A DNA stretch of 41,015 nucleotides from the IMG/VR virus record IMGVR_UViG_2537561977_000014; one strand, 5' to 3'. The notes below the pieces were generated by a model that was given only the letters and a program-made list of their open reading frames with translations, was not told the origin of the DNA and made no database searches. Origin of the DNA: a virus (Duplodnaviria; Heunggongvirae; Uroviricota; Caudoviricetes). Every line of letters starts with the position of its first letter. The first letter of the stretch is position 1. Below, piece by piece: positions 18,417 through 23,859 of the stretch. Position numbers and translations under genes: made by a program.

Positions 18417-19181
18417 ATGGCAAAACCGGACTGGGAGGCCATCGAATCGGCATACCGGGCCGGAGTCCTTAGCCTCCGTGATATAGGCGAGAAATACGGC
18501 GTTACAGAAGGGGCTATCAGGAAGAGGGCCAAAAAGCTTGGTTGGGCACGCAGTGGCGGTACGCAGGTTTGCAAAAATGGTACGCAAAAAAGGAAAGTGC
18601 GTACCAGCAGAAAGCCTGCCATTACTGGCCTTACACAAAAAAGTACGCAACTAAAAACAGAATCTACACCGGATACGAAACCGATACGCGGAATGCGTAC
18701 CGATCCCCCGACTAACCCATTCCAACCCGGTAACCAGCAGGCATTAAAACACGGTGGTTATGCCCGTCGCCTTCTGCTCAAAGATGAGGTGATAGAGGAC
18801 GCTAAAGCGTTGACGCTCGAGGACGAATTATTTCGCCTTCGTGCTAACAACCTTGTCGCTGCAGAGAATATTGGCCGGTGGTTGGTGTCGCTGGAAGATG
18901 CTAATGGGGACCAGGAAAGGAAGATGCTGATTGAAAATATCAGCGCCGCCGAGAAAGCAATGATGCGCAATACAGTTCGTATTGAGTCCATCGTTGGCAC
19001 GCTTGCGACGGTAGGAAAAATATTTGCTGATACAGCCTACCGCAAGGCCGCCACTGATAAGGTGTCTCTGGAGGCTGATCGTCTTCGCCGTGATGCAGGT
19101 ATTGATGATGGCAATGGAGAGCGTGACCTCAATGACTTCTACTCTGACATCCAAACCGACGCTGAATCCGGCTTTACGTAG
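18417..19181 (+). CDS. Terminase small subunit
   Basis: N-terminal HTH-like segment (..GVLSLRDIGEKYGVTEGAIRKRAKKLGW..); immediately upstream of terminase large subunit. Confidence 0.65.
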   Translation: MAKPDWEAIESAYRAGVLSLRDIGEKYGVTEGAIRKRAKKLGWARSGGTQVCKNGTQKRKVRTSRKPAITGLTQKSTQLKTESTPDTKPIRGMRTDPPTNPFQPGNQQALKHGGYARRLLLKDEVIEDAKALTLEDELFRLRANNLVAAENIGRWLVSLEDANGDQERKMLIENISAAEKAMMRNTVRIESIVGTLATVGKIFADTAYRKAATDKVSLEADRLRRDAGIDDGNGERDLNDFYSDIQTDAESGFT

Positions 19182-20535
19182 TTTCTGGACTATGCGGGCA
19201 CGTAACAAAGTGCTTTATGGTGGTCGGTCATCGTCAAAATCATGGGATGCCGCTGGCATTGCCATATTTCTGTCGAATAAATACACCCTGCGTTTTTGTT
19301 GTGCCCGTCAGATCCAGAATAAAATCGAAGAGTCGGTGTATACCCTGCTCAAAATTCAGATAGACAGGTTTGGTCTGCGGCACCGTTTCCGTATTCTGAA
19401 CAACAAAATCATAAACCGGGTTACTGGCTCGGAATTTGTTTTTTATGGATTATGGCGCAACATCGAAGAAATTAAGTCACTGGAGGGGATCGATGTGTTG
19501 TGGCTGGAAGAAGCCCACGCACTGACGGAATACCAGTGGAAAATTCTGGAGCCAACGATCCGTAAAGAGGGTTCGGAATGCTGGTTCATATTCAACCCCG
19601 GACTTGTTACTGATTTCGTCTGGCGCAACTTCGTTGTTGATCCGCCCGAAGGCACTCTCATCCGCAAAATTAACTATGACGAAAATCCGTTTCTGTCTGA
19701 CACCATGCTTAAGGTTATCGACGCGGCGCGACGCCGTGATCCGGATGGTTTTAAACATGTGTATGAGGGCGTTCCGGAGTCTGATGATGATGCGGCAATC
19801 ATCAAACTGTCTTGGATAGAAGCCGCAGTGGATGCGCACAAAACGTTAAATTTCGAACCCAGTGGAAGAAAGCGTATTGGCTTTGACGTGGCTGACAGTG
19901 GTACAGATAAGTGCGCTAACGTTTACCGTCACGGATCCGTTGTTTTCTGGGCCGACGAATGGAAGGCCAAAGAAGATGAATTACTGAAGAGCTGCCAGCG
20001 TACTTATCAGGCGGCGCTGGAGCGTGAAGCAGATATTGTTTACGACTCTATCGGTGTTGGTGCGTCTGCCGGTGCTAAATTCTCTGAAATTAACGCTGAC
20101 CGGAAGAGCGAGAACGCATACGCGCGACGTGTGAATTACCAGAGGTTTAACGCCGGTGCTGGTGTGCATGAGCCAGATGACGAGTACAACGGCATCCCCA
20201 ACAAAGACTTTTTCGCAAATCTTAAGGCTCAGGCATGGTGGCTGGTGGCTGACCGTTTCAGAAATACGTTTAACGCCATTAACAACGGAGAACAGTATCC
20301 TGTGGATGAGCTGATCAGCATAGATTCTCGTTGTCCGTTGCTTGAAAAGCTGAAACTGGAACTGACAACACCTCATCGTGATTTCGACCGTAACGGACGT
20401 GTGATGGTCGAAAGTAAAAAAGACCTCGCAAAACGCGAGATACCGTCACCAAACGTTGCTGATGCATTCATTATGGCCTTCGCGCCAATCGATACATCGC
20501 TGGATATCTGGGAACAGCTGGGGAGACAGGCCTGA
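19132..20535 (+). CDS. Terminase large subunit
   Basis: ATPase N-terminal region (..YGGRSSSKSWDAAGIAIFL.., ..VLWLEEAH..) and C-terminal nuclease-type acidic residues; start ATG 19132 with GGAG RBS. Confidence 0.8.
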   Translation: MTSTLTSKPTLNPALRSFWTMRARNKVLYGGRSSSKSWDAAGIAIFLSNKYTLRFCCARQIQNKIEESVYTLLKIQIDRFGLRHRFRILNNKIINRVTGSEFVFYGLWRNIEEIKSLEGIDVLWLEEAHALTEYQWKILEPTIRKEGSECWFIFNPGLVTDFVWRNFVVDPPEGTLIRKINYDENPFLSDTMLKVIDAARRRDPDGFKHVYEGVPESDDDAAIIKLSWIEAAVDAHKTLNFEPSGRKRIGFDVADSGTDKCANVYRHGSVVFWADEWKAKEDELLKSCQRTYQAALEREADIVYDSIGVGASAGAKFSEINADRKSENAYARRVNYQRFNAGAGVHEPDDEYNGIPNKDFFANLKAQAWWLVADRFRNTFNAINNGEQYPVDELISIDSRCPLLEKLKLELTTPHRDFDRNGRVMVESKKDLAKREIPSPNVADAFIMAFAPIDTSLDIWEQLGRQA

Positions 20536-22001
20536 TGGCACGAAACAAACAAGCCCTGCGGCGAACTGTGCAGGCCACAGCTGATGGTTATGAGAATTTT
20601 ATTGCCCGCGTAGGGATGCAGACACCTAACCAGCACTCAGCATCCACCTACCGGGCTAATTTCACCAGTCGTAACCGCATGCTGGTGGAATGGTCCTATC
20701 GTTCATCCTGGATCATCGGCGAAGCAGTCGATGCTATCCCGGATGATATGACCCGCAAAGGCATTCGCATCACTTCGGAAATTGATGCAAAAGATCGTGG
20801 CATTCTCGAATCACAACTGGATGAGTTGCAAATCTGGGATGCGCTGAATGACGTGCTGAAATGGTCGCGCCTCTACGGCGGCGCGGTGGGTTTCATCATG
20901 ATTGAGGGGCAGGCACCAATGACCCCGCTGCGACCCGAAACCATCGGTAAGGGCAAGTTTAAGGGGATTCTCCCGCTCGACCGCTGGATGGTCGACCCGG
21001 CACTGACCCGCCGCATTAAAGATATGGGGCCGGACCTGGGTAAACCTGAGTTTTACGATGTGGTGACCACAGCAACGGGAATTCCTGCCTGGCGCATTCA
21101 TCACAGTCGCCTGATTCGCTTTGATGGCGTCACGTTGCCATTTCAGCAGAAGATGACCGAGAACGAATGGGGAATGTCGGTTGTAGAGCGTATCTGGGAT
21201 CGTCTTACCGCGTTCGACAGCGCTACTGTCGGCGCGGCGCAGCTGGTCTACAAGGCGCATTTGCGTACCTACAGCGTGGAGAAGCTACGCGAGCTTATCG
21301 CACTTGGTGGTCCTGCGTATGAAGCGTTGCTGAAGAATATCGACCTGATTCGACAGTTCCAGAGTAATGAAGGCATGACGCTCATGGACTCGCGGGATAA
21401 GTTTGAAACCCATCAGTACAGCTTCAGTGGTCTGGATGACATCCTTTCGCAGTTTGCAGAACAGATTAGTGGCGCTGTTGGTATCCCACTGGTGCGGTTG
21501 TTCGGACAGTCCCCGAAAGGATTTTCTACCGGTGATGCAGACCTTGCCAACTATTACGATCGCATCAGTTCGTTGCAGGAGAGGCGTTTACGTCTTCCGG
21601 TGCGGCGGATACTGGACATCATGCATCGTTCGGAACTTGGCAAGCCGCTGCCGGACGATTTCACGTTTGAGTTTAACCCGCTCTGGCAAATGTCTGATGT
21701 CGATCGCTCAACGGTGGCGTTAAACACCACCAACGCAATCAGTACGGCGCTGGGTGATGGTCTGATGACACTGAAAGCCGCTATGACTGATTTGCGAGAA
21801 AATTCTGACGTAACCGGCATCGGGGCATCCATTACCGACGAGGACATCGAGAATGCCGAAGATGAAGCGCCGCCCGGCATCGGCGAACCTGATGACGAAC
21901 CGCAGGAGCCGTCAGGCGGAAATCCGGTATCGAACCAGCCTACGCAGGATAGCGAGGGCGGTCGGAGACATCGTAAATGGTCGCTACGATGGTTCAAATG
22001 A
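20535..22001 (+). CDS. Portal protein
   Basis: 488 aa ORF directly after terminase; start overlaps terminase stop. Confidence 0.75.
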   Translation: MARNKQALRRTVQATADGYENFIARVGMQTPNQHSASTYRANFTSRNRMLVEWSYRSSWIIGEAVDAIPDDMTRKGIRITSEIDAKDRGILESQLDELQIWDALNDVLKWSRLYGGAVGFIMIEGQAPMTPLRPETIGKGKFKGILPLDRWMVDPALTRRIKDMGPDLGKPEFYDVVTTATGIPAWRIHHSRLIRFDGVTLPFQQKMTENEWGMSVVERIWDRLTAFDSATVGAAQLVYKAHLRTYSVEKLRELIALGGPAYEALLKNIDLIRQFQSNEGMTLMDSRDKFETHQYSFSGLDDILSQFAEQISGAVGIPLVRLFGQSPKGFSTGDADLANYYDRISSLQERRLRLPVRRILDIMHRSELGKPLPDDFTFEFNPLWQMSDVDRSTVALNTTNAISTALGDGLMTLKAAMTDLRENSDVTGIGASITDEDIENAEDEAPPGIGEPDDEPQEPSGGNPVSNQPTQDSEGGRRHRKWSLRWFK

Positions 22002-22635
22002 CAGTATCACGGAAATTATTGCGGCGCTGGAGCGTTACAGTGAAATCATCACCCCCTGGGCGACAAAGGTCGCGGAAAACTTTACTGCGGACCTAACCCG
22101 GCAGAACGAGAAAGTTTGGCGGCAACACAGCAAGAACATCAGTCGCGAGCTCCGCAATCTTGTGGAAAGCGCTCCTGTGGGCCAGGTGATGCAATCCATC
22201 ATCGCCGAACAGGTCAAGTACATCAAATCTCTGCCTCTCGAGGCCGCAGACAGGGTGTACGACATCCAGAACAAAGCGATAGAGGCTGTTGTCACCGGTG
22301 GTCGGGCGGAGCAGTTTGCTAAAGAGATTGCATCTACCGGCGATGTTGCTAAGTCTAGGGCCGATCTGATTGCCCGAACGGAACTGGGAAGAGCAACGGG
22401 CGCGCTGGATATGGCCCGAGCGATAGCTATTGGCTCGGATGGTTATATTTGGCGTACAGCCGATGATGGCGATGTCCGAGATTCCCACGATCACATGAAA
22501 GGTAAATTCGTCCGCTGGGATTCACCTCCAACTTTGGACGGCATGACCGGCCACGCGGGCGAGCTGCCAAACTGCCGCTGCTATAAAGAGATCGTGTTTG
22601 TTCGCGTTCCATTCGCAATGAAAAGGGCAGCATAA
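21853..22635 (+). CDS. Head morphogenesis protein (phage Mu F / SPP1 gp7-like)
   Basis: C-terminal ..RTADDGDVRDSHDHMKGKFVRWDSPPTLDGMTGHAGELPNCRCY.. typical of this family; 5' end overlaps portal ORF by ~150 nt. Confidence 0.65.
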   Translation: MPKMKRRPASANLMTNRRSRQAEIRYRTSLRRIARAVGDIVNGRYDGSNDSITEIIAALERYSEIITPWATKVAENFTADLTRQNEKVWRQHSKNISRELRNLVESAPVGQVMQSIIAEQVKYIKSLPLEAADRVYDIQNKAIEAVVTGGRAEQFAKEIASTGDVAKSRADLIARTELGRATGALDMARAIAIGSDGYIWRTADDGDVRDSHDHMKGKFVRWDSPPTLDGMTGHAGELPNCRCYKEIVFVRVPFAMKRAA

Positions 22636-22638
22636 CCC

Positions 22639-23859
22639 ATGAAATACTTTTTTGAGACCAGGCTCGGGGAAACCCGATACCGCCTGGCTGACGGCTCGTT
22701 GCTGTGCAAAGACGTGCCGATAGGACGAACAGGTAAGCAGCTCTATGGTGCTGATGACCTGCCAAAACTGAAACCCGATAAGTTCGGTGAAATAGTCGTC
22801 ACGCGTTCTCCTGAGCAGGTATTCCATCCGGCCACGCTTGCCTCATTCGAAGGGATGAGCATCACGATCCTGCATCCTGAAGATGAAAACGGGAATGTGC
22901 GGCTGGTAAATCCCGAGAACTGGAAAGAGCTTGCTGTCGGGCACCTCCAGAATGTCCGGCGCGGGACGGGTGAGCAGTCTGATTTGATGCTGGCTGACCT
23001 TATCGTCAAAGACGAAAGCGCCATTCAGCTTATCGAAGATGGCCTGCGCGAAGTGTCGTGCGGCTATGACGCGGAGTACGAGCAGACCGAGCCAGGTAAA
23101 GCCGAGCAGGTCGATATTACCGGAAACCATGTGGCTCTTGTCCCTAAAGGCAGAGCCGGAAATCGTTGTGCAATTGGAGACAGAGACACAATGGCAAATC
23201 AAAAGAAAAACTGGTGGAACCGCATGCGTGCGGCCATCAAGACAGGAGATGCCGACACCATGAACGAACTGGTGGAGTCGGCTCCCGCATCGGTTACAGG
23301 AGATGAGGGGGATTTGCCGCAGGGCGTTAATCTCAACATCAACCTGTCCCCGCAGCAACCACTACCGGACAAAGCACCAGAGATGGGCGGAGATCCAACC
23401 GGCGACAGTGATGATGACCTCAAAACATTACTGAAAGCCCTGCTGGCTAAGCTGGAAAGAAATGCCACGGGCGATAACGATAATAAGCCTGACGATAATC
23501 CGACCGGTGACGGCGAGGACGATGAAGAGGAAACCACGATTACTGGTGACTCAGCCTGGCGTGCCGAAGTTATCGTTCCGGGTATCGATCTGAGCCGTAA
23601 GATGAAACCGACCGCGTTCAAACGCGAGGTTCTGGCTTCTGCTGACAAAACGCTGGTTCGCCAGATAGTCGGTGATGCGGATATCCGCAAATTACCGAAA
23701 CAATCGGTCGACATGGCGTTTAATGCCGTGTCTGAGGTTGCCAAAGGGCGAAACACCCGCGCCACCACCGGCGATGCACAGCGCCTAAACATGGGCATGA
23801 CCAGTATCGCTTCCCTGAACAAACAAAACGCTGAATTCTGGGCAAGCCGTAAAGGGTAA
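22639..23859 (+). CDS. Phage head structural protein, probable scaffold (acidic, low-complexity C-terminal half)
   Basis: ORF between head-morphogenesis and capsid genes; D/E/G/T-rich region. Confidence 0.5.
   Translation: MKYFFETRLGETRYRLADGSLLCKDVPIGRTGKQLYGADDLPKLKPDKFGEIVVTRSPEQVFHPATLASFEGMSITILHPEDENGNVRLVNPENWKELAVGHLQNVRRGTGEQSDLMLADLIVKDESAIQLIEDGLREVSCGYDAEYEQTEPGKAEQVDITGNHVALVPKGRAGNRCAIGDRDTMANQKKNWWNRMRAAIKTGDADTMNELVESAPASVTGDEGDLPQGVNLNINLSPQQPLPDKAPEMGGDPTGDSDDDLKTLLKALLAKLERNATGDNDNKPDDNPTGDGEDDEEETTITGDSAWRAEVIVPGIDLSRKMKPTAFKREVLASADKTLVRQIVGDADIRKLPKQSVDMAFNAVSEVAKGRNTRATTGDAQRLNMGMTSIASLNKQNAEFWASRKG

What the first reader, a model, noticed from the sequence alone, without database searches (positions are those of the whole stretch)
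21853..22001. ~150-nt out-of-frame overlap between portal and head-morphogenesis ORFs
The portal ORF tail (..EGGRRHRKWSLRWFK) looks like non-conserved read-through, while the overlapping frame already looks protein-like. The true portal stop may be upstream after an indel, or the overlap is genuine.
Basis: seen in the sequence. Interest (0 to 1): 0.2.

Follow-up and report, generated by a model that had tools for sequence, protein, structure and literature searches.

The report
Genuine portal / head-protein gene overlap
The last 149 bases of a prophage portal gene are also the first 149 bases of the next head gene (MuF-like) in a different frame; relatives keep both readings, so this is a real, conserved dual-coding stretch and not a sequencing or annotation error.

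Summary
The portal ORF (20535-22001, 488 aa, Pfam Phage_portal_3) and the MuF-like ORF (21853-22635, 260 aa, Pfam Phage_Mu_F) overlap by 149 nt, with MuF in the +1 frame.

The overlap is genuine.
- The MuF start ATG at 21853, with a GAGGA Shine-Dalgarno 8 nt upstream, is kept in 35/35 non-redundant Enterobacterales relatives (GTG in Yersinia). The other in-frame ATGs (21862, 21892) and the starts annotated in relatives are not conserved.
- MuF residues about 20-50, all encoded inside the overlap, are conserved as far as Burkholderiales, Acinetobacter and Acidobacteriota.
- The portal has the same length and nearly the same stop position in relatives. Its tail is variable in the middle but carries near-invariant D472-S473 and L-R-W-F at the end.
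- Synonymous variation falls in both frames inside the overlap. MuF wobble bases that specify the portal's S, R, W and F are fixed, including the rare codons ATA and CTA.

The "non-conserved read-through / indel" reading is refuted. Public annotations of this gene pair disagree with each other. I rate it a well-supported member of a known kind of feature (same-strand out-of-frame gene overlap), of modest interest.

The parts
20535..22001 (+). Portal gene (DUF1073 / Phage_portal_3 family), 488 aa. The folded body runs to about residue 443; residues 444-488 form a low-confidence, probably disordered tail.
   Evidence: ORF. Pfam PF06381 E=3e-106 over residues 55-402. Related to the solved Pam3 portal 8hds, E=2e-37. 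Same length in SEN34, EcoM-689R2 and yong1. AF2 pLDDT is below 50 for residues 444-488.
21853..22635 (+). MuF-like / SPP1 gp7-family minor head protein gene, 260 aa, starting at the ATG at 21853
   Evidence: ORF. Pfam PF04233 E=1.5e-18 over residues 137-243. The start codon is aligned and conserved in 35/35 relatives. The N-terminal region is conserved in distant homologs.
21840..21844 (+). Shine-Dalgarno-like GAGGA, 8 nt upstream of the MuF ATG, embedded in portal codons D-E-D (GAC GAG GAC)
   Evidence: Sequence. GAGGA is present at the same place in 29 of 35 relatives, AAGGA in one, and GGGGAG in the five Xenorhabdus loci whose portal ends differently.
21853..22001 (+). Dual-coding stretch of 149 nt: portal residues 440-488 plus the stop codon, and MuF residues 1-50
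   Evidence: Synonymous variability is reduced in both frames. Overlaps of 134-179 nt occur in 35 Enterobacterales relatives, 164 nt in Klebsiella phage GZ7, and roughly 0-170 nt in more distant relatives.
21948..21953 (+). Portal D472-S473 (GAT AGC), invariant. It overlaps MuF R32-I33-A34, with I33 fixed as the rare codon ATA.
21984..22001 (+). Portal C-terminal motif L-R-W-F-K plus the stop codon. It is written over the MuF motif Y45-D46-G47-S48-N49-D50, where the MuF wobble bases of Y, D and G are fixed (TAC, GAT, GGT).

Best explanation
This is a real, evolutionarily conserved, same-strand out-of-frame overlap between two late head genes of an E. coli/Shigella prophage (SEN34-like head module).

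How it works:
- The portal gene is translated through to TGA at 22001. Its last ~45 residues form a flexible acidic/proline-rich linker that ends in a short basic-aromatic peptide (...DS...RKWSLRWFK).
- The MuF-like gene is translated independently. Its own ribosome-binding site (GAGGA, 21840-44) and ATG (21853) lie inside the portal coding sequence, 149 nt before the portal stop, in the +1 frame.
- Both products are made from the same late mRNA. The 149 nt therefore encode the portal tail and the N-terminal basic segment plus first helix of MuF at once.

Shown here: both ORFs and their termini are conserved, the MuF start and Shine-Dalgarno sequence are conserved, and both frames are under purifying selection.

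Inferred:
- The MuF frame is the older reading, because its N-terminal motif is conserved in lineages where the portal stops earlier. The portal tail would then have been extended over it (overprinting) and later acquired a function of its own.
- Initiation inside a translated gene would fit the low copy number expected for a gp7/MuF-type protein.
- The basic-aromatic portal end probably faces the capsid interior and contacts DNA or an internal protein such as MuF. SPP1 gp7 is known to bind its portal gp6 (PMC6316719).
For: MuF start:
- The ATG aligned with 21853 is present in 32/35 non-redundant Enterobacterales loci, with GTG in the 3 Yersinia loci. A purine-rich Shine-Dalgarno sequence lies 8-9 nt upstream, and the overlaps measure 134-179 nt.
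- The alternative in-frame ATGs M4 and M14 differ in 72% and 82% of sequence pairs.
- The annotated downstream starts of SEN34 (ATG where the window has ATT) and EcoM-689R2 (GTG where the window has ACC) are not conserved.
- The MuF frame has 2-10 stops in the 300 nt upstream of M1 and none within the overlap.

The MuF frame is coding inside the overlap:
- The motif AE.RY.TSLR.IA..VG.IV.G (residues 22-43) is conserved in homologs down to 41-53% identity, from Pandoraea, Cupriavidus, Acinetobacter and Acidobacteriota.
- Portal-synonymous variability drops from 0.52-0.54 to 0.23 inside the overlap (Mann-Whitney p=5e-16).

The portal frame is coding and selected inside the overlap:
- Portal length and stop position are conserved.
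- D472, S473, R485 and W486 are at least 90% conserved in 26 homologs at 57-91% identity. F487 is invariant in the 35-locus set.
- MuF-synonymous variability is 0.36 inside the overlap against 0.53 outside (p=4e-7).
- Codons are fixed at 5 of 15 invariant MuF residues inside the overlap against 2 of 84 outside (Fisher p=7e-4). These include the rare codons CTA (33/35) and ATA (35/35), and TAC/GAT/GGT, which spell portal R-W-F.
- The probability that the portal frame stays open by chance, given the MuF protein, is 0.04.
- Pandoraea keeps the portal R-W although MuF reads PAGDP there instead of YDGSN.

No RNA explanation: the fold z-score is -0.30 and there is no Rfam hit.

Not an artefact of this copy: the window is identical to Shigella flexneri and E. 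coli chromosomes, and the module occurs in 339 of 5426 complete E. coli genomes.
Against: - There is no direct expression evidence: no N-terminal sequencing, mass spectrometry or ribosome profiling for either terminus.
- The middle of the portal tail is highly variable (57-86% of pairs differ at many positions).
- Two endosymbiont-type lineages (Arsenophonus L037, Sodalis P0234) stop before the DS/LRWF motifs, and two others run 4-11 residues longer. The tail is therefore not indispensable everywhere.
- Part of the portal-tail conservation is an automatic by-product of MuF conservation.
- The AF2 models are low-confidence over both overlapping protein segments, so structure adds little.
- Several database annotations place the MuF start downstream of the portal stop.
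Confidence: 0.85

Rival explanations
1. The overlap is real but shorter. MuF starts at an internal ATG (21862, M4, or 21892, M14), giving an overlap of 140 or 110 nt. Some gene callers choose these starts.
For: Logan/Prodigal-type calls give 257 aa, starting at M4 (P0001). PGAP starts the identical E. coli copy at window 21892. Many RefSeq proteins are 244-245 aa.
Against: M4 and M14 are not conserved: 72% and 82% of pairs differ. Relatives such as Omnitron, L010 and L011 have no ATG there, only the conserved M1, apart from an in-frame TTG at the codon aligned with window L13 (21889), which is CTG in the window. Only M1 has the conserved GAGGA at the right spacing. The residues M-[PR]-K-x-K-RR are themselves conserved in character.
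Confidence: 0.08
2. The portal tail is translated but functionless. It is a read-through left by an old loss of the stop codon, and its conservation is only a by-product of selection on the MuF frame.
For: - The tail is predicted to be disordered and its middle is very variable.
- Arsenophonus and Sodalis copies lack the end of the tail.
- In distant relatives the portal stops at many different places.
- The invariant portal motifs lie exactly over invariant MuF residues.
Against: - MuF wobble positions are free under this model, yet they are fixed where they determine the portal's S473, R485, W486 and F487. These include rare codons, and such fixation is about 14 times more frequent than in the rest of MuF.
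- MuF-synonymous variability is reduced overall.
- The portal frame stays open to the same stop in lineages from Escherichia to Yersinia, Xenorhabdus and Klebsiella phages, although only ~5% of synonymous recodings would allow it.
- R-W is kept in Pandoraea despite different MuF residues.
- Similar [RK][LI]xxW[FILV]K ends occur on divergent portals.
Confidence: 0.12
3. There is no real overlap. MuF starts after the portal stop, as annotated for SEN34, EcoM-689R2, yong1, Mulock and some RefSeq genomes, and the upstream open frame is chance.
For: Annotations. An open stretch of 49 codons has a chance probability of about 0.1.
Against: - MuF residues 20-50 are conserved as protein across orders and phyla. 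The tblastn matches begin at query residues 1-20.
- The annotated downstream starts are not conserved between relatives.
- Portal-synonymous variability collapses inside the overlap.
Confidence: 0.02
4. A programmed +1 ribosomal frameshift inside the overlap makes a portal-MuF fusion protein.
For: MuF is in the +1 frame of the portal in all 51 loci where a portal ORF could be paired with the MuF frame (all but the frameshifted L033). Four database proteins are in-frame portal-MuF fusions of 655-697 aa.
Against: - The four fusions are singletons with four different junctions. One is a 124-nt deletion between two GACATCG copies. This is the pattern of sporadic indels or assembly errors.
- MuF has its own conserved start and Shine-Dalgarno sequence.
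- By reading the sequence I found no X_XXY_YYZ or CCC_UGA/CUU_UGA-type site in the portal frame of the overlap. The stop context varies among relatives (K*, KR*, F*, Q*).
- No stable or conserved RNA structure was found.
- None of ten long portal-family representatives scanned carries a MuF domain.
Confidence: 0.02
5. A sequencing or assembly indel in this particular window created an artificial portal tail.
For: None, beyond the odd look of the tail.
Against: The window is 100% identical over the MuF gene to independent Shigella and E. coli chromosomes and many IMG/VR contigs. It differs at 2 of 3701 positions from E. coli FDAARGOS_943, neither of them in the overlap. All relatives have the same reading frames.
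Confidence: 0.01

Closest known systems
Same-strand out-of-frame overlapping genes (overprinting) in phages and bacteria, e.g. the phiX174 overlaps and lambda Rz/Rz1 (from my own knowledge); long co-directional overlaps assessed by Palleja et al. 2008 (PMC2478687)
   Same: Two proteins are read from one strand in different frames. One frame appears older (MuF N-terminus) and the other is an extension that encodes a disordered, compositionally biased peptide. Synonymous variation is reduced in both frames.
   Different: Palleja et al. found no genuine co-directional overlap above 60 bp among 715 cases in 338 genomes. Here a 134-179-nt co-directional overlap passes the ortholog-length test they proposed and also shows dual selection. 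It is a terminal overlap (3' end of one gene, 5' end of the next), not an embedded gene like Rz1.
SPP1 gp6 (portal) / gp7 (MuF-family minor head protein) pair
   Same: The gene order is the same (portal followed directly by the MuF/gp7-family gene), and the Pfam family of the downstream protein is the same. In SPP1, gp7 binds the portal and is carried into the procapsid in a few copies (PMC6316719).
   Different: The portal here belongs to a different Pfam family (Phage_portal_3/DUF1073). The SPP1 genome paper reports only stop/start overlaps such as AUGA for other gene pairs, and my term search of it found no gene 6/7 overlap. No interaction between this portal tail and this MuF has been tested.
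Salmonella phage SEN34 (Brunovirus) and relatives: Escherichia phages vB_EcoM-689R2/606R2/611R5/683R1, Citrobacter phage Omnitron, Hafnia phage yong1, Klebsiella phages GZ7 and Mulock
   Same: They share the same head module (portal, MuF, DUF2213) at 77-93% DNA identity (Klebsiella phages ~71%, portal part only). They have the same two overlapping ORFs and the same portal end (...LRWFK/KR).
   Different: Their records mostly annotate a 5'-truncated MuF that avoids the overlap; only GZ7 annotates a 164-nt overlap. The window's TerL is of a different type from SEN34's.
Solved portals of the same family: cyanophage Pam3 portal (8hds), Pseudomonas phage E217 gp19 (8fvh)
   Same: Sequence-homologous portal body (E=2e-37 and 1e-14).
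   Different: The alignments stop at query residues 413-452. The tail encoded in the overlap has no counterpart in the solved chains by sequence.

Membership tests
Phage_portal_3 / DUF1073 portal proteins (PF06381) | Match to the Pfam profile above the gathering score | tested here: met
   355.4 bits against a cutoff of 33.8, profile positions 7-355 of 357. Homology to solved portals 8hds, 9jlf and 8fvh.
Phage_portal_3 / DUF1073 portal proteins (PF06381) | Position in a head module directly after the large terminase gene | tested here: met
   TerL (PF04466) ends at 20535 and shares 1 nt with the portal ATG.
Phage Mu F / SPP1 gp7 minor head proteins (PF04233) | Match to the Pfam profile above the gathering score | tested here: met
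   68 bits against a cutoff of 29.6, residues 137-243. 808 homologs, named head morphogenesis or minor capsid protein by their sources.
Phage Mu F / SPP1 gp7 minor head proteins (PF04233) | Binds the portal and is incorporated into the procapsid in low copy number | not testable with these tools
   Known for SPP1 gp7 (PMC6316719). No data exist for this protein.
Genuine same-strand overlapping gene pair | Both ORFs have the same length and termini as their orthologs (the criterion of Palleja et al.) | tested here: met
   Portal homologs are 485-491 aa. The MuF start aligns in 35/35 relatives. The N-terminal region of MuF is conserved in distant homologs.
Genuine same-strand overlapping gene pair | Purifying selection detectable in both frames (reduced synonymous variability in each) | tested here: met
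   MuF frame 0.36 against 0.53, p=4e-7. Portal frame 0.23 against ~0.53, p=5e-16. Fixed wobble bases, Fisher p=7e-4.
Genuine same-strand overlapping gene pair | Downstream gene has its own start codon and ribosome-binding site inside the upstream gene | tested here: met
   GAGGA, then 8 nt, then ATG, conserved.
Genuine same-strand overlapping gene pair | Both products detected experimentally with the predicted termini | not testable with these tools
   No proteomic or ribosome-profiling data are available here.
Programmed ribosomal frameshift site | Conserved slippery sequence, usually with a stimulatory element, and no independent start for the downstream frame | tested here: not met
   No slippery heptamer or shifty-stop motif was found on reading the overlap in the portal frame. 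The stop context is variable. The fold z-score is -0.30. The downstream frame has its own conserved start.

The most novel reading that the evidence does not exclude
The portal tail is a young, overprinted reading of the 5' end of the MuF gene that has acquired a function of its own. It would act as a short basic-aromatic C-terminal motif (LRWF) on a flexible linker inside the capsid, docking DNA or the MuF protein. The portal and its partner would then be physically co-encoded and co-evolve through the same nucleotides (portal LRWF = MuF YDGS). Similar W-containing ends on divergent portals without this overlap would then be convergent solutions.
Probability: 0.35. Interest if true: 0.45.

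Novelty: new member of a known kind. Interest (0 to 1): 0.3.

Why it matters
Practical value:
- It fixes the termini of two head proteins that public records annotate in at least five different ways: MuF of 176, 202, 244/245, 257 or 260 aa. Many records cut off a conserved 50-residue N-terminus.
- The module is present in about 6% of complete E. coli genomes (339 of 5426) and in several named phages.

Conceptual value:
- It is a clean example of a long (134-179 nt) co-directional overlap that passes ortholog-length and dual-selection tests. One systematic survey found no genuine case in this class (PMC2478687).
- It points to an untested short motif at the very end of a DUF1073-family portal that could be probed by mutagenesis.

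It does not reveal a new kind of system.

Tried and rejected
- RNA structure or a known RNA family as the cause of the reduced synonymous variation: the MFE z-score is -0.30 and there is no Rfam hit at E<=1. Rejected.
- Promoter and terminator scan of 21400-22400: only weak consensus matches at chance level, none on the + strand near the MuF start. Uninformative.
- Antisense ORF 21554-21997 (147 aa): that frame carries up to 5 stops among the 35 relatives, and at least 2 in about half of them, so the ORF is not conserved. Rejected as a gene.
- AlphaFold2 of MuF (pLDDT 54, N-terminal half ~40) and of the portal (pLDDT 60, tail below 50): too low in confidence over the overlapping segments to say more than 'helical' and 'disordered'. 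I did not run fold searches for that reason.
- Profile search of the PDB with the MuF alignment: no hit.
- The viral-contig scan returned only close relatives (87-100% identity) and added no depth.
- I first suspected that the many 600-1779-aa relatives were portal-MuF fusions. All ten that I scanned instead carry other C-terminal domains or none. Only four singleton fusions with different junctions exist among the close relatives.
- I first suspected that TerL in the window is N-terminally truncated. It is a different TerL type from that of SEN34, and the Pfam domain is complete. Its true start was not resolved.

Full report
**What is in the sequence**

The window carries a late head module on the + strand:
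- a large terminase (maximal ORF 19024-20535, Pfam Terminase_3);
- a portal protein (20535-22001, 488 aa, Pfam Phage_portal_3/DUF1073, E=3e-106);
- a MuF/SPP1-gp7-family minor head protein (maximal ORF 21853-22635, 260 aa, Pfam Phage_Mu_F, E=1.5e-18);
- a DUF2213 protein (22639-23859).

The portal and MuF ORFs share 21853-22001, which is 149 nt, and MuF lies in the +1 frame of the portal. The other junctions of the module are tight: TGATG at 20533-37, and TAA-ccc-ATG at 22633-41. The long overlap stands out against them.

**Origin**

The window is identical over this region to prophages in Shigella flexneri and E. coli chromosomes. The module occurs in 339 of 5426 complete E. coli genomes. It is 83-93% identical in DNA to Salmonella phage SEN34 (Brunovirus), four vB_EcoM phages and Citrobacter phage Omnitron, and 77% identical to Hafnia phage yong1. 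The portal part alone is ~71% identical to a group of Klebsiella phages.

**Where MuF starts**

Public records disagree:
- SEN34, EcoM-689R2, yong1, Mulock and some RefSeq genomes start MuF after the portal stop, at different and mutually non-conserved codons.
- PGAP starts the identical E. coli copy at window 21892.
- Other gene callers use 21862.
- Klebsiella phage GZ7 annotates a 164-nt overlap.

I collected 49 loci from one genome per species plus the phage loci, and aligned the whole open MuF frame. Residues 22-43 (AE.RY.TSLR.IA..VG.IV.G) are conserved in every lineage, down to 41-53% overall identity in Pandoraea, Cupriavidus, Chitiniphilus, Acinetobacter, a Bryobacteraceae MAG and an Acidobacteriota MAG. 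A basic segment precedes them (M-[PR]-K-x-K-RR...). All of this lies inside the overlap, so the MuF frame is truly coding there.

In 35 non-redundant Enterobacterales loci, the codon aligned with 21853 is ATG 32 times and GTG 3 times (Yersinia). It is preceded at 8-9 nt by GAGGA, by AAGGA in one locus, or by GGGGAG where the portal end differs in Xenorhabdus. The resulting overlaps are 134-179 nt. The alternative Met codons M4 and M14 are not conserved. The MuF frame is closed by 2-10 stops in the 300 nt upstream of M1. I therefore place the start at 21853.

**Whether the portal tail is real**

- Length and stop position. Portal homologs at 57-91% identity are 485-491 aa and align to the very end. 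The stop lies 83-89 nt after the MuF A22 codon in nearly all Enterobacterales loci, and at +86 in Pandoraea.
- Sequence. The tail is variable in its middle. D472-S473 and R485-W486-F487 are invariant or nearly so in the 35 loci, and D472, S473, R485 and W486 are at least 90% conserved in 26 database homologs. Klebsiella phage GZ7, with no detectable DNA similarity here, still ends ...PTGDS...FLRWFTGKR*.
- By-product or selection. Portal codon position 1 is the MuF wobble position, so part of this conservation could follow automatically from MuF. I therefore compared synonymous variation within the same set of sequences.
  - In the MuF frame, the mean fraction of same-amino-acid pairs that use different codons is 0.36 inside the overlap and 0.53 outside (Mann-Whitney p=4e-7).
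  - In the portal frame it is 0.23 inside and 0.52-0.54 outside (p=5e-16).
  - Among near-invariant degenerate MuF residues, 5 of 15 inside the overlap have an essentially fixed codon, against 2 of 84 outside (Fisher p=7e-4).
  - The fixed codons are L30 CTA (33/35), I33 ATA (35/35), Y45 TAC (35/35), D46 GAT (34/35) and G47 GGT (35/35). CTA and ATA are rare codons in enterobacteria (my own knowledge). Their third bases are exactly those that make portal T470, S473, R485, W486 and F487. TAT at Y45 would create a portal stop.
- Stop avoidance. If the overlap is recoded with random synonymous MuF codons, the portal frame stays open to the observed stop in 4% of trials for the window (median 4.7%). 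Yet it is open in all 35 lineages.
- Independent support. In Pandoraea, MuF reads PAGDP instead of YDGSN at this place, but the portal still has R-W.
- RNA alternatives. RNA structure does not explain the constraint: the fold z-score is -0.30 and there is no Rfam hit.

I conclude that both frames are under purifying selection.

**Evolution of the junction**

In all 51 loci where a portal ORF could be paired with the MuF frame (all but L033, which carries a frameshift), the portal is in the -1 frame relative to MuF. The portal stop position wanders in distant relatives. With plausible MuF starts, the overlaps are:
- about 0-8 nt in an Aquaspirillum MAG and a Sulfuricella MAG;
- 26 nt in a Bryobacteraceae MAG;
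- about 60-100 nt in Acinetobacter, Chitiniphilus, Thiobacillus and Arsenophonus;
- 150-170 nt in Pandoraea and Cupriavidus.

The MuF N-terminal motif is conserved throughout, whereas the portal tail beyond about residue 445 is lineage-specific. The simplest reading is that the MuF frame is the older one and the portal was extended over it. This is an inference.

The portal C-terminus is a generally plastic site. Among 50%-identity representatives of the family, many proteins are 600-1779 aa long. All ten that I scanned carry the portal body at the N-terminus, and six of them have added domains (InPase, RelA_SpoT, ADP-ribosyltransferase, topoisomerase IB).

Short [RK][LI]xxW[FILV]K-type ends recur on divergent portals: P0263, P0313, L054 and L056. 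This suggests that a terminal amphipathic Trp motif is useful in itself.

**Frameshift fusion?**

Four database proteins are in-frame portal-MuF fusions (655-697 aa). Each is a singleton with a different junction inside the overlap. One arose from a 124-nt deletion between two GACATCG copies (window 21843-49 and 21967-73). That is the signature of sporadic indels or assembly errors. With no slippery site, a variable stop context and an independent conserved MuF start, a programmed frameshift is very unlikely.

**Mechanism proposed**

Both proteins are made from the late transcript.
- Ribosomes translating the portal continue to TGA at 22001. They produce a flexible tail (AF2 pLDDT below 50 for residues 444-488) that ends in a basic-aromatic peptide.
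- Other ribosomes initiate at the internal Shine-Dalgarno/ATG site (21840-55) to make MuF.
- In SPP1, the MuF-family protein gp7 binds the portal and enters the procapsid in a few copies (PMC6316719). Initiation inside a translated gene would be compatible with low MuF output, and the portal tail may contact DNA or MuF inside the head. These last points are inferences and were not tested.

**Comparison with what is known, and verdict**

Long co-directional overlaps in prokaryotic annotations are usually errors. Palleja et al. found no genuine case among 715 overlaps above 60 bp (PMC2478687). This pair passes their ortholog-length criterion and shows dual-frame selection, so it is a genuine exception. 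It is still a member of a well-known kind of feature (overprinted phage genes), not a new system. My two literature searches found no description of this particular overlap, but the library is limited.

Interest is modest at 0.3. The main value is correct termini for a widespread prophage module and a testable C-terminal portal motif.

Noticed in passing
Proteins P0242-P0264 (relatives of window 20535-22001): Many relatives of this portal family (representatives at 50% identity) are 600-1779 aa. All ten that I scanned have the portal body at the N-terminus, and six carry added C-terminal enzyme or toxin-like domains: InPase PF18823, RelA_SpoT PF04607, ADP-ribosyltransferase PF03496, topoisomerase IB PF01028. 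The portal C-terminus looks like a general attachment point for cargo delivered with the capsid.
   Followed up: partly
Window 21843-21849 and 21967-21973; proteins P0121, P0123, P0124, P0127: Four singleton database proteins are in-frame portal-MuF fusions (655-697 aa), each with a different junction inside the overlap. P0124 corresponds to a 124-nt deletion between two GACATCG copies. They are probably sporadic indels or assembly errors. They show how easily the two genes can fuse.
   Followed up: partly
Window 18417-20535: The window's large terminase (Terminase_3) is a different type from SEN34's: 36% identity, C-terminal half only. DNA similarity to SEN34 begins only ~57 nt before the portal ATG, so there is a mosaic joint at the TerL/portal boundary. 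A TerS-like ORF (18417-19181) overlaps the maximal TerL ORF (19024-...) by up to 158 nt. The true TerL start is unresolved, and PGAP calls TerL 'incomplete, missing N-terminus' in the identical E. coli prophage.
   Followed up: partly
Window 22518 (locus L057): In E. coli FDAARGOS_943 the otherwise identical MuF gene is annotated as a pseudogene with an internal stop. The only difference from the window within the gene is G22518A. The window copy is intact.
   Followed up: yes
Window about 22600-22635; alignment A2 C-terminal columns: The last ~10 residues of MuF fall into alternative versions among close relatives (VRVPFAMKRAA, or PTSHSYPA / PNPHSYLA). The megablast match to relatives stops ~36 nt before the MuF stop. 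This suggests a second small mosaic joint at the MuF/DUF2213 boundary.
   Followed up: no
Window 21554-21997, minus strand: A 147-aa antisense ORF lies opposite the portal 3' end and the overlap. That frame carries up to 5 stops among the 35 relatives, and at least 2 in about half of them, so the ORF is not conserved and is most likely a by-product of the coding strand's composition.
   Followed up: yes
Loci L054, L056; proteins P0263, P0313: Divergent portals of the family end in similar short motifs (RLIAWVKGNA, RLKAWVNG, LKRWIKRKRY, RIAAWLKGQNVEV). In L054 and L056 the portal stop lies upstream of, or barely overlaps, the MuF start. This may be a recurrent terminal Trp motif of unknown function.
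   Followed up: no
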